A DNA stretch of 37,197 nucleotides, taken from contig JBHEMM010000008.1 of assembly GCA_046262595.1 (NCBI GenBank), positions 6,231-43,427 on the forward strand, given 5' to 3'. Source of the stretch: Vulcanimicrobiaceae bacterium. Lineage in GTDB: Bacteria > Vulcanimicrobiota > Vulcanimicrobiia > Vulcanimicrobiales > Vulcanimicrobiaceae. Positions 6,208 to 15,100 of this stretch are shown piece after piece. A program made the position numbers and the translations under genes. How positions within the stretch are numbered: the stretch's first letter is position 1; the number at the start of each line of letters is the position of its first letter. The notes under the pieces were generated by a model. The model had not been told where the DNA came from and did not search any database. It worked only from the letters and a program-made list of their open reading frames with translations.

Positions 6208-6298
6208 GGAGAGGTGGCAGAGCGGTTTAATGCAGCGGTCTTGAAAACCGCAGAAGGTGATGAATCTTCCGAGGGTTCGAATCCCTCCCTCTCCTCCA
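6208..6298 (+). tRNA. tRNA-Ser (anticodon UGA)
   Basis: GGAGAGG/CCTCTCC acceptor stem, anticodon arm GCGGT-CTTGAAA-ACCGC, long variable arm, GGTTCGAATCC T-arm, encoded CCA. Confidence 0.97.
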
Positions 6299-12956: not shown

Positions 12957-13229
12957 CGTTCGTTTGATCGACGGCGCCGCCGTCGATATCGCCGTTGCGC
13001 AGCGTTCCCTGCACGTGCAGAATGTGGTCCGAACCGATGTGGAACCAAATGGCGCTGTAATCCGCCGGAAAATAATAACCGGTGAGGTTCCGTCGCTCGC
13101 GACGTTCAAATCCCACGAACCCGAGTAGCGTGTGCTTTCTTCCAGCGCCGTGAGTGTCGTCGAGAAGTGCAGGACGGTGCTGTGTGCGAGCCGCGGAAGC
13201 GCGGCGCACGCTTTTGCGACCGTCCGCAT
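12910..13229 (-). pseudogene. Frameshifted hypothetical beta-rich protein
   Basis: Frame A ...RYSGSWDLNVASDGT continues plausibly into frame B LTGYYFPADYSAIWFHIG...LHVQGTLRNGDIDGGA if one base is restored near 13087. Confidence 0.5.
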
Positions 13230-13262
13230 GGAAAACACCGCCGGACGAGAAGCTTCCGGGGG

Positions 13263-14189
13263 ATGGTGAGCGAATATCCGACCGATCTGCGCGGCCTCCC
13301 GGTCTGGGAGCGCGCAGGCCTCGTGCTGGGACGGGCCGACAACCTTGAGACGGGGGCGCAATACGAGTTTCTAACGGAGGTCGATCCGCGCGCGCTGATC
13401 AGCCGCCTGGAGCAGCTGCGACCCGGATCGTTCGCATACACGGCGCGGCAAGTCGGCGAGGGGCATTGGCACGTGACCTTACGCCGCACCGTGGCGGCGC
13501 GTTCTGACGGCGTTCCGGCCACGTTCGTTCGTACGCCGCTGCTCGCGCTGTTGGGCGACGAGTCGCGCCGCGAACTCATTGCAGGCGCAACGCAGATCGA
13601 TCTGCGCAAAGGACAGGTTGCTTGCGAAGCAAACCACGCGCGCGAATGGTTCGGCGCGGTGACGGATGGGGTCCTTGGAATATTCGCGGGCGCGGGAACG
13701 CGAGAGCGCCTTCTGTTTTACGTGCACGCCGGAGAAGCGCTCGGGGCGGCGGAGTTATTGGACTGCGGACTTTCATTCGGCCGCACGATCGCGCTCTCGC
13801 GCACGGCGCGCGTGCTCAAAATACCCATGGCCGCGATGCGCAAGCGTCTCGCCTGCGAGCCGGCCTTCGTACGCGCACTCGGCGTTGTCTGCGCGCAGCA
13901 CGTGCGCGCGCTCGCGGGCGCGCTTTCCGATCAAGTGCGCCAACCGATCCTCTCGCGCGTCGCGATCGCGCTCCTGCCTTACGCAGCGCCCGAGCGCGGA
14001 CTGCATCCCGCGCTTCCTCCGCTTGCATCCATGACGCAGTCGCACCTTGCCGCCGCTGCCGGCACCGTCAAAGAGGTTGCGGCTCGAGCGATTGCCGACC
14101 TGGAACGCGCCGCGGCGCTGCGGCGCGAGCGCGGCCACATTGCCTACCTCGATCGCTCTAAGCTGCTCGAGATCGTCGATCACGGCTGA
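13263..14189 (+). CDS. Crp/Fnr-family regulator with N-terminal DUF2249-like domain
   Basis: DLRGLPVWER...DPRAL...GHWHVTL N-domain; cNMP-type domain; HTH MTQSHLAAAAGTVKEVAARAIADL. Confidence 0.85.
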   Translation: MVSEYPTDLRGLPVWERAGLVLGRADNLETGAQYEFLTEVDPRALISRLEQLRPGSFAYTARQVGEGHWHVTLRRTVAARSDGVPATFVRTPLLALLGDESRRELIAGATQIDLRKGQVACEANHAREWFGAVTDGVLGIFAGAGTRERLLFYVHAGEALGAAELLDCGLSFGRTIALSRTARVLKIPMAAMRKRLACEPAFVRALGVVCAQHVRALAGALSDQVRQPILSRVAIALLPYAAPERGLHPALPPLASMTQSHLAAAAGTVKEVAARAIADLERAAALRRERGHIAYLDRSKLLEIVDHG

Positions 14190-14904
14190 GCCCTTCCCAG
14201 AAGATCTCGACCGCATCCAGCACGGCGGTGCCCGCACGTAAAAACTTCTCCCCGTCGAAGCCGGGCTGCGCGAACACCGTAGTCAGTTCGTCGTGCGTGT
14301 GCGTCGCATGCTGCTCTTCGAGCTGATCGTGCCACACCCAAAAGCCCAGGGGCAGGTCCGGCATGCGCTGCCCTTTGACGCGCCGTAGACCCGAGATCAA
14401 TTGTTTCCAAAACCCCGCCGCCGCCCAGTTCTCGATCGCGTGCGATGCGCCGGTGCTCTCGGATGTGTCGCGCGATGCGTACCAGCTCATCAGCGCATCG
14501 CAAAAGGCCAGAGTCGGCGGCGTTCCCAATTCGCGTTTACCGATTTCGTGAAATTCCAGACCGAAGTGCCCGGCAAACGCGGCGAGCCATTCAAAATGCG
14601 CCGCATGAAAGCGGAACGTCCCCTGGTCGACGCTCCCCGACGGTGCGAACGTCACGCCCAGTTCGTTCATCAAAATCTCCTTGCCGGCGCGGTACGACGC
14701 GAGATCGCGAGCGTTGATGCATTTACGCAGCTGCGCCTCGATGAAAAGGTGGCTGAAGACGGAAAACTGCACGGCGAAATGCCGCAGCTCTTCGAACGAC
14801 GCCTCGCCCCGCGCAAACCACGACGTATACGGGTTCATGCGGACGATCGGGTGATCTTCCAAATGCGTTGCGACGGCTTTTTTGAACGACTCGAGTGAAT
14901 CCAT
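14158..14904 (-). CDS. Heme-oxygenase-like diiron oxidase (HDO; TenA/PqqC/CADD-like fold), function unknown
   Basis: HP near N-terminus, NELG...AHFEW, AIENW, WHDQLEEQH (HxxxExxH) metal-ligand pattern; GGAG RBS before ATG 14904. Confidence 0.8.
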   Translation of the reverse strand: MDSLESFKKAVATHLEDHPIVRMNPYTSWFARGEASFEELRHFAVQFSVFSHLFIEAQLRKCINARDLASYRAGKEILMNELGVTFAPSGSVDQGTFRFHAAHFEWLAAFAGHFGLEFHEIGKRELGTPPTLAFCDALMSWYASRDTSESTGASHAIENWAAAGFWKQLISGLRRVKGQRMPDLPLGFWVWHDQLEEQHATHTHDELTTVFAQPGFDGEKFLRAGTAVLDAVEIFWEGLSRDRRSRAA

Positions 14905-14918
14905 GAATGACTCCGTTA

Positions 14919-14958
14919 GAAAGAAAAAACCGCCCCGGCTTTCGGCCGGAGCGGTTTT
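14919..14958 (-). terminator. Intrinsic terminator/attenuator in the 5' leader of the HDO gene
   Basis: AAAACCGCTCCGGC-CGAAA-GCCGGGGCGGTTTT stem followed by TTCTTTC, just upstream of the RBS. Confidence 0.85.
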
Positions 14959-14983
14959 GCACATCTGCAGCGATTCTACTCGC

Positions 14984-15061
14984 TTAGGGCAAACACCGAA
15001 ACAGCCGGCTCGAAGTGGAGCGGCCGTAATAAGACGAGGTTGCGCTAAGCAAGAGATGCAT
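14984..15061 (-). CDS. Putative 25-aa leader peptide MHLLLSATSSYYGRSTSSRLFRCLP
   Basis: ATG a few nt after the predicted TSS; overlaps alternative hairpins upstream of the terminator. Confidence 0.5.
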   Translation of the reverse strand: MHLLLSATSSYYGRSTSSRLFRCLP

Positions 15062-15071
15062 GTTGGAAGCG

Positions 15072-15100
15072 ATAGTATCACGGCATGAGGTGAGGGTCAA
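15072..15100 (-). promoter_or_regulatory. sigma70 promoter for leader/HDO transcript
   Basis: TTGACC-N17-TACTAT with extended -10 TG. Confidence 0.75.

What the first reader, a model, noticed from the sequence alone, without database searches (positions are those of the whole stretch)
14905..15100. Apparent leader-peptide transcription attenuator controlling an orphan diiron oxidase
Seen on the minus strand: promoter TTGACC-N17-TACTAT; a near-leaderless 25-codon uORF (MHLLLSATSSYYGRSTSSRLFRCLP, 15061-14984); an intrinsic terminator (14958-14919) right before the RBS of the HDO gene. The uORF 3' segment GCCGGCTGTTTCGGTGTTTGC (15009-14989) is complementary to the terminator 5' arm GCAAAACCGCTCCGGC (14960-14945), so it could act as an antiterminator. 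The same region can instead pair with the uORF 5' part (CTTGCTTAG-C-GCAA with TTGC-C-CTAAGCGAG; CGGCCG with CGGCTG). Established: this 1:2 / 2:3 / 3:4 layout is the trp/his-type attenuator logic. Inference: a ribosome stalled at tandem Tyr codons 11-12 (or at the Ser codons) would mask segment 1 and free the antiterminator, so the oxidase would be induced by amino-acid limitation or translational stalling. I know of no attenuator described for this enzyme class. An unknown riboswitch is an alternative reading.
Basis: partly seen in the sequence, partly recalled or inferred. Interest (0 to 1): 0.85.

Follow-up and report, generated by a model that had tools for sequence, protein, structure and literature searches.

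The report
Tyrosine-starvation switch on candidate phenylalanine hydroxylase
A tiny upstream gene with tyrosine codons and a transcription stop signal, conserved in two bacterial phyla, likely switches on an unstudied two-metal-fold enzyme when tyrosine runs short, and genome patterns suggest that this enzyme is probably a new, pterin-free way to turn phenylalanine into tyrosine.

Summary
Of 47 Eremiobacterota/Obscuribacterales orthologue leaders, 46 carry a uORF with a 2-6 Tyr run; in 45 it is near-leaderless and followed by a terminator. Terminator and 1:2 helix covary; the antiterminator is pairing-conserved but does not covary. No Rfam match. Similar Tyr leaders precede aroH-tyrA in relatives, which supports the polarity: ON when Tyr is scarce. 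The Ser idea fails.

The gene has the HDO fold (CADD Z 22) and an invariant 3His/3Glu set. It is not an orphan: in Acidimicrobiia it sits in Lrp-HDO-hppD(-hmgA-fahA) clusters, where phhA also occurs. In the window's family 32 of 41 HDO genomes lack tyrA (23 of 90 without HDO do); 31 of those 32 lack any detected chorismate mutase, and none has PhhA. Best reading: a classical Tyr attenuator controlling a pterin-independent dimetal Phe 4-hydroxylase (inferred, untested; about 0.65).

The scan noted each half before on other DNA (e1-9953771, e1-9734112); this report joins them and adds the no-prephenate argument.

The parts
15072..15100 (-). sigma70-type promoter (-35 at 15100-15095, -10 at 15077-15072); start site inferred a few nt before the uORF ATG
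   Evidence: a -10-like hexamer lies 6-11 nt (9-10 in 42 of 45) before the uORF start in orthologues
14984..15061 (-). near-leaderless leader-peptide uORF, 25 codons
   Evidence: conserved frame, 19-27 codons in orthologues
15026..15031 (-). control codons Tyr11-Tyr12 (runs of 2-6 Tyr in orthologues)
15016..15026 (-). segment 1 (anti-antiterminator), pairs with segment 2
   Evidence: 86% of cells paired, covariation score above 500 of 500 shuffles
14989..15014 (-). segment 2 (antiterminator 5' strand)
14941..14960 (-). segment 3 (terminator 5' arm and loop), shared by antiterminator and terminator
14918..14958 (-). intrinsic terminator (3:4 hairpin plus U tract)
   Evidence: 97% paired, 33 double changes, 0 of 500 shuffles
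14910..14915 (-). Shine-Dalgarno-like site of the enzyme gene
   Evidence: sequence
14158..14904 (-). 248-aa heme-oxygenase-like dimetal enzyme, predicted ligands E81, H103, E158, H192, E196, H199; candidate phenylalanine 4-hydroxylase
   Evidence: function inferred

Best explanation
This is likely a classical ribosome-stalling transcription attenuator that senses tyrosyl-tRNA and would switch on a heme-oxygenase-like dimetal enzyme predicted to hydroxylate phenylalanine (or phenylpyruvate) at C4 without a pterin. Shown: the promoter, the near-leaderless Tyr uORF, three mutually exclusive helices, their conservation, the HDO fold and ligand set, and the genome patterns. Modelled: with Tyr plentiful the ribosome runs to the uORF stop, covers segment 2, and the terminator forms; with Tyr scarce it stalls on the Tyr codons, covers segment 1, segment 2 pairs with the terminator's 5' arm and loop before segment 4 is made, and RNA polymerase reads into the gene. 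Inferred: the product supplies Tyr from imported Phe in cells that lack chorismate mutase, prephenate dehydratase and prephenate dehydrogenase; in Acidimicrobiia the same enzyme would open Phe catabolism ahead of HppD under an Lrp/AsnC regulator. Chemistry (dimetal O2 activation, two electrons from a general cellular reductant) is inferred from the family. Odds: attenuator about 0.9; hydroxylase about 0.7.
For: Leader: 45 of 47 leaders by a strict script, Tyr 21% of residues, 118 TAT/100 TAC, run starting at codon 8-11, rest of the peptide variable. Stall mask pairs more of segment 3 upstream than stop mask in 43 of 45; stalled-state energy beats shuffles of the intervening region (at most 3 of 60) in 36 of 45. 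Terminator and 1:2 helix covary. Controls: 7 of 20 aroH-tyrA leaders in relatives have 4-5 Tyr with the same layout; this genome has a Trp-run leader before a DAHP-synthase-like gene (family named from recalled motif). Enzyme: model pLDDT 89; CADD Z 22.0, rmsd 2.5 over 211; HrmI and BesC Z 21.4; six predicted ligands in 120 of 120 homologues. Family f1, 131 genomes: HDO+/tyrA+ 9, HDO+/tyrA- 32, HDO-/tyrA+ 67, neither 23; genus g4 7/17/18/5. Of the 32: AroH mutase in 1 (against 29 of 29 tyrA+ genomes tested), CM_2 over cut-off in 0, PDT in 2, PhhA in 0. HDO decayed in 3 of 9 tyrA+ genomes against stops in 2 of 32 tyrA-. Obscuribacterales: tyrA not found in 7 of 15 HDO+ against 2 of 45 HDO-. Acidimicrobiia: hppD beside HDO in 29 of 31 loci, Lrp in 30, hmgA-like in 13, FAH-like in 6; phhA loci carry the same partners. 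80 metagenome loci: 16 Tyr leader, 46 catabolic neighbour, 0 both.
Against: No activity, metal, RNA or ribosome data. The antiterminator core is 82% paired (slid controls 32-57%) but shows no covariation above shuffles (209 of 500). On the full transcript the terminator still wins with the stall mask, so the switch must be kinetic. Stall beats the ribosome-free state in only 28 of 45, and the stop-mask contrast is partly built in. The window's leader has only 2 Tyr. 23 of 131 family genomes have neither HDO nor tyrA; 6 have both with an intact-looking HDO; 8 of 15 HDO+ Obscuribacterales have a TyrA-like match. This genome keeps chorismate synthase, so a chorismate- or prephenate-derived substrate is not excluded; it is also only 89.7% complete. 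PhhA/HDO non-overlap in Acidimicrobiia (13 and 4 of 151) is too sparse to count. Kin are not independent, so the Fisher p values overstate. A 49% homologue in Gloeothece sits in an unrelated context. No dedicated reductase gene recurs next to it. hmgA-like neighbours score below the NCBIfam cut-off.
Confidence: 0.65

Rival explanations
1. Tyr attenuator as above, but the enzyme makes 4-hydroxyphenylpyruvate or Tyr from prephenate, arogenate or chorismate by O2-dependent oxidative decarboxylation, as a direct TyrA substitute.
For: Tracks loss of tyrA; chorismate synthase is present here; UndA-type decarboxylation is known HDO chemistry (PMC13108848, passages and section 4 read); class II DAHP synthase lies behind the Lrp gene in 6 of 31 actinobacterial loci.
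Against: 31 of 32 HDO-only genomes lack AroH and none has CM_2 over cut-off. Coupling to hppD-hmgA-FAH catabolic genes under Lrp would burn a biosynthetic intermediate.
Confidence: 0.1
2. Tyr attenuator, but the enzyme recovers Tyr or 4-hydroxyphenylpyruvate from another aromatic compound (a modified Tyr, an O-alkyl or amino analogue), or does another step attached to the homogentisate pathway.
For: Both contexts only require a product that feeds Tyr/HPP. Characterised HDOs do varied amino-acid chemistry (PMC13108848 section 4). A distant homologue has another context.
Against: A niche salvage substrate would hardly explain loss of the whole aroH-tyrA route in 31 of 32 genomes; phhA loci share the same partners.
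Confidence: 0.15
3. The leader is a ligand-binding riboswitch or a general translation-stress sensor, and the uORF is incidental.
For: The ribosome-free leader is strongly structured (z -4.2); in some orthologues the antiterminator forms without a ribosome.
Against: Tyr codons are kept with free synonymous change and indels in multiples of three; run length varies 2-6; no Rfam match; related leaders carry Tyr or Trp runs matching the downstream aro genes.
Confidence: 0.07

Closest known systems
Classical leader-peptide transcription attenuators (E. coli trpL, hisL, pheL; recalled)
   Same: uORF with a run of control codons, 1:2 / 2:3 / 3:4 helices, intrinsic terminator before the gene, predicted ON at starvation.
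   Different: Control codon is Tyr; the uORF is near-leaderless (no Shine-Dalgarno); segment 2 reads the terminator loop; the target is not a known biosynthetic gene. No Tyr-codon attenuator turned up in searches, but older comparative papers in subscription journals are not in the library.
PhhA, pterin-dependent phenylalanine 4-hydroxylase (PF00351)
   Same: Proposed reaction; shares hppD, hmgA-like and Lrp partners in Acidimicrobiia; known dual role in Tyr supply and Phe catabolism (recalled).
   Different: Unrelated fold (HDO helical bundle, two-metal site); no PhhA or pterin-4a-carbinolamine dehydratase in this genome.
Heme-oxygenase-like dimetal oxidases (CADD 8VA9, HrmI 9N1A, BesC 7TWA, FlcD 8W1Q, UndA 6P5Q)
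   Same: Fold (Z 19.7-22.0) and 3His/3carboxylate-type ligand set.
   Different: 12-16% identity; about 20-residue insertion between E81 and H103. Ring hydroxylation of a free aromatic amino acid is not among the reactions listed in section 4 of the 2026 review PMC13108848. A role in primary amino-acid supply.

Membership tests
Classical leader-peptide attenuator | Short uORF with a conserved run of one amino acid's codons, in frame | tested here: met
   45 of 47 (46 with L018); 118 TAT/100 TAC
Classical leader-peptide attenuator | Intrinsic terminator between uORF and gene | tested here: met
Classical leader-peptide attenuator | Antiterminator overlapping the terminator and exclusive with it | tested here: met
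   pairing conserved (82% against 32-57% slid) and energy above shuffles in 36 of 45; covariation not above shuffles
Classical leader-peptide attenuator | 1:2 helix positioned so that a stalled ribosome frees segment 2 | tested here: met
   (modelled footprint)
Classical leader-peptide attenuator | Read-through depends on uORF translation and charged-tRNA level | not testable with these tools
   needs reporters or Term-seq
Classical leader-peptide attenuator | Downstream gene supplies the sensed amino acid | tested here: inconclusive
   genome patterns fit; no activity data
Known Rfam riboswitch or cis-element | Match at the gathering score | tested here: not met
   best 16.5 bits, far below cut-offs
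HDO superfamily | Heme-oxygenase-like helical bundle | tested here: met
   PF14518 in 23 of 44 members at E up to 0.1, none for the window protein itself
HDO superfamily | 3His/3carboxylate ligand set | tested here: met
   E81, H103, E158, H192, E196, H199 in 120 of 120; E158, H192, E196, H199 align to matching BesC residues in a weak match (E 0.11); E81/H103 assignment inferred
HDO superfamily | Binds two metals and activates O2 | not testable with these tools
   Fe/Fe or Fe/Mn left open
Pterin-dependent aromatic amino acid hydroxylases (PF00351) | Biopterin_H domain | tested here: not met
   no Pfam match for the protein; different fold
CADD/NePabS self-sacrificing pABA synthases | Sequence family match and folate-pathway context | tested here: inconclusive
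   no NCBIfam match, 16% identity, context is Tyr-related; the sacrificial Tyr was not mapped

The most novel reading that the evidence does not exclude
A widespread HDO subfamily (4,572 homologue clusters) is a second, pterin-independent phenylalanine hydroxylase that performs aromatic C-H hydroxylation at a dimetal site; soil Eremiobacterota use it as their only route to tyrosine and control it with a leaderless Tyr-codon attenuator of the same type that controls aroH-tyrA in their relatives.
Probability: 0.6. Interest if true: 0.88.

Novelty: new variant of a known kind. Interest (0 to 1): 0.76.

Why it matters
If right, it names a new enzyme for a textbook reaction (Phe to Tyr) and a reaction type not listed for HDOs in a 2026 review. 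It would close a pathway hole in genomes now scored as Tyr auxotrophs or as lacking the first step of Phe catabolism, and could give a pterin-free biocatalyst. The attenuator is a known kind of device, but Tyr-sensing and near-leaderless, and it serves as a functional label for an unannotated family. One complementation test in E. coli could decide the enzyme claim.

Tried and rejected
Rfam at gathering and E-value thresholds: nothing. Pfam, NCBIfam and PDB sequence searches with the single protein: nothing. Ser as control codon: rejected. Reverse polarity (ON when Tyr is plentiful): disfavoured by the masked folding and by similar leaders on aroH-tyrA. Neighbours in the window (serS, Crp-like DUF2249 gene, moeA) are lineage synteny only. 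PhhA exclusivity in Obscuribacterales was uninformative (0 of 60 have PhhA) and in Acidimicrobiia too sparse. Foldseek against the PDB was not obtained; VIA-align was used. A whole-genome gene-calling script timed out. Paper searches listed no paper whose title or abstract start reports an HDO Phe hydroxylase or a Tyr-codon attenuator; only PMC13108848 was opened (passages and section 4), no supplements were seen, and subscription papers are not covered. No complex prediction was sent (enzyme and substrate, not suited).

Full report
Observation. On the minus strand the promoter-like site (15100-15072), the 25-codon uORF (15061-14984, Tyr11-Tyr12 at 15031-15026), the terminator (stem 14958-14926, U tract to about 14918), an RBS-like site and the 248-codon gene (14904-14158) are as described. 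The leader folds better than all 200 shuffles. Rfam finds only a tRNA elsewhere in the window, and nothing near threshold in the leader. Named relatives place the window in Eremiobacterota (inferred).

Conservation of the leader. One search gave 80 orthologous loci: 49 labelled Eremiobacterota, Obscuribacterales/Melainabacteria, other Cyanobacteria or unclassified bacteria, and 31 Actinomycetota. Three of the 49 have too little upstream DNA. Among the other 46 plus the window, a strict script found a -10-like hexamer, then 6-11 nt, then a 19-27-codon uORF with at least two Tyr and a terminator in 45 of 47; a looser script adds L018; L039 has none. Tyr is 21% of leader residues, split 118 TAT and 100 TAC, runs are 2-6 long and start at codon 8-11, alignment gaps before the run are multiples of three, and the peptide ends vary. 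That is selection on Tyr codons, not on peptide or exact bases. Ser is missing from the four codons before the run in 15 of 45. None of the 31 actinobacterial loci has such a leader with a terminator.

Structure. On alignment A2 (37 of the 45 leaders) the terminator is 97% paired with 33 double changes (0 of 500 shuffles), and the 1:2 helix is 86% paired with covariation above all shuffles. The antiterminator core is 82% paired against 32-57% when slid, but does not covary beyond shuffles; six window-type rows are also shifted by a column there. With transcripts cut just past the terminator loop and a ribosome-sized mask at the last Tyr codon, a median of 12.8 nt of segment 3 pair upstream, against 0.6 with the mask at the stop codon and 7.8 with no ribosome; stall exceeds stop in 43 of 45 and free in 28 of 45. 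The stalled fold is more stable than shuffles of the intervening region in 36 of 45 by energy and 16 of 45 by pair count. On the complete transcript the terminator still wins, so the switch has to be co-transcriptional, as in classical attenuators (recalled). Controls: 7 of 20 aroH-tyrA upstream regions in relatives carry 4-5-Tyr leaders of the same layout, while the others are Tyr-poor, shortened or absent. This genome has a Trp-run leader and terminator before a DAHP-synthase-like gene on contig C24.

The protein. It has no Pfam, NCBIfam or PDB sequence hit but 4,572 homologue clusters. The alignment weakly hits BesC (E 0.11) and PF14518 (23 of 44 members); the ESM Atlas points the same way. 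The AlphaFold model (pLDDT 89) matches CADD (Z 22.0, rmsd 2.5, 211 aligned), HrmI, BesC, FlcD and UndA. E81, H103, E158, H192, E196 and H199 are present in 120 of 120 homologues, fitting the 3H/3C set described in PMC13108848 (section 4 and passages read). Metal binding is not shown.

What it does: first context. This genome (89.7% complete) has chorismate synthase but no detected prephenate dehydrogenase, prephenate dehydratase, either chorismate mutase, PhhA or pterin dehydratase. In 131 family genomes of at least 90% completeness: HDO and tyrA 9, HDO only 32, tyrA only 67, neither 23; within genus g4, 7/17/18/5 (kin are not independent). PhhA is in 0 of 131. Of the 32 HDO-only genomes, 1 has the AroH mutase (29 of 29 tyrA genomes tested do), 0 have CM_2 over cut-off, and 2 have PDT. 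So they appear to make no prephenate and to import Phe. HDO is decayed in 3 of the 9 tyrA genomes and has stops in 2 of the 32. In 60 genomes of the order of L042, tyrA is not found in 7 of 15 HDO carriers and 2 of 45 others; the other 8 carriers have TyrA-like matches.

Second context. In the 31 actinobacterial loci hppD lies beside the gene in 29, an Lrp/AsnC gene in 30 (divergent), an hmgA-like gene in 13 and an FAH-like gene in 6 (90 of 162 neighbour ORFs were scanned: hppD over cut-off where full-length, hmgA-like below it). Of 13 phhA loci from the same class (1.5 kb flanks), 2 have hppD, 4 an hmgA-like gene, and 1 has hppD plus an Lrp 56-65% identical to the HDO-linked ones. In 80 metagenome loci, 16 have a Tyr leader, 46 a catabolic neighbour, none both, and 18 neither, many on short contigs (at least one, L152, duplicates a genome locus). 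A step that both supplies Tyr without prephenate and feeds HppD is most simply para-hydroxylation of Phe or phenylpyruvate. This is inference from context.

Against. No experiment or RNA data; 23 genomes lack both routes and 6 have both intact; chorismate is made here; a Gloeothece homologue has another context; no dedicated reductase recurs; HDO/PhhA exclusivity could not be tested with power.

Comparison and novelty. The leader meets the sequence-testable features of a classical attenuator; it differs in sensing Tyr and being near-leaderless. The protein is an HDO by fold and ligands and is not a member of the PhhA family, though it likely works like PhhA. Ten paper searches listed no report of either claim; all but one paper were seen as listings only, and subscription literature is outside the library. 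My reading was recorded before the first look-up of scan notes. Earlier notes on other DNA describe the attenuator (e1-9953771), the PhhA-replacement idea (e1-9734112) and the catabolic context; they are unchecked and are not counted as support. Verdict: real; new variant of a known kind; interest 0.76.

Noticed in passing
G000:C24:25865 (minus), locus L132: Near-leaderless uORF with three Trp codons and a terminator before a DAHP-synthase-like gene; a likely Trp attenuator in this genome.
   Followed up: partly
L094, L112, L116, L122, L126, L129-L131: Tyr-rich near-leaderless leaders with terminator before aroH-tyrA in relatives; in others (L091, L093, L127, L128) the leader is missing, and in L115, L117-L119, L121, L123-L125 it is shortened and mostly Tyr-poor.
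   Followed up: partly
L095, L096: Leaders with Tyr and Trp codons before a roughly 600-aa prephenate-dehydratase fusion gene in aro operons.
   Followed up: no
genus g4 (0 of 47 with PF00800): A whole genus seems to lack prephenate dehydratase while about half keep aroH-tyrA: likely Phe auxotrophs that make Tyr.
   Followed up: partly
genus g2: All 10 genomes have PDT but neither tyrA, HDO nor PhhA; their Tyr source is unexplained.
   Followed up: no
G000:C28:5800-10600: hppD, hmgA-like and FAH-like genes are present in this genome; the apparent split in hppD falls on an assembly gap.
   Followed up: partly
L134 (G094): An HDO copy that lost several predicted ligands also lost the Tyr run in its leader, in a tyrA-positive genome.
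   Followed up: partly
window 13167-14189 (+): Convergent gene fusing DUF2249 to a Crp-like regulator; its stop overlaps the end of the HDO gene.
   Followed up: no
window 6208-6295 (+): tRNA gene with a long variable arm (Rfam).
   Followed up: no
L230 (NC_014533.1): A 49%-identical homologue in Gloeothece lies before a 2OG-Fe dioxygenase and a cysteine-desulfurase-like gene; it may have another function.
   Followed up: no
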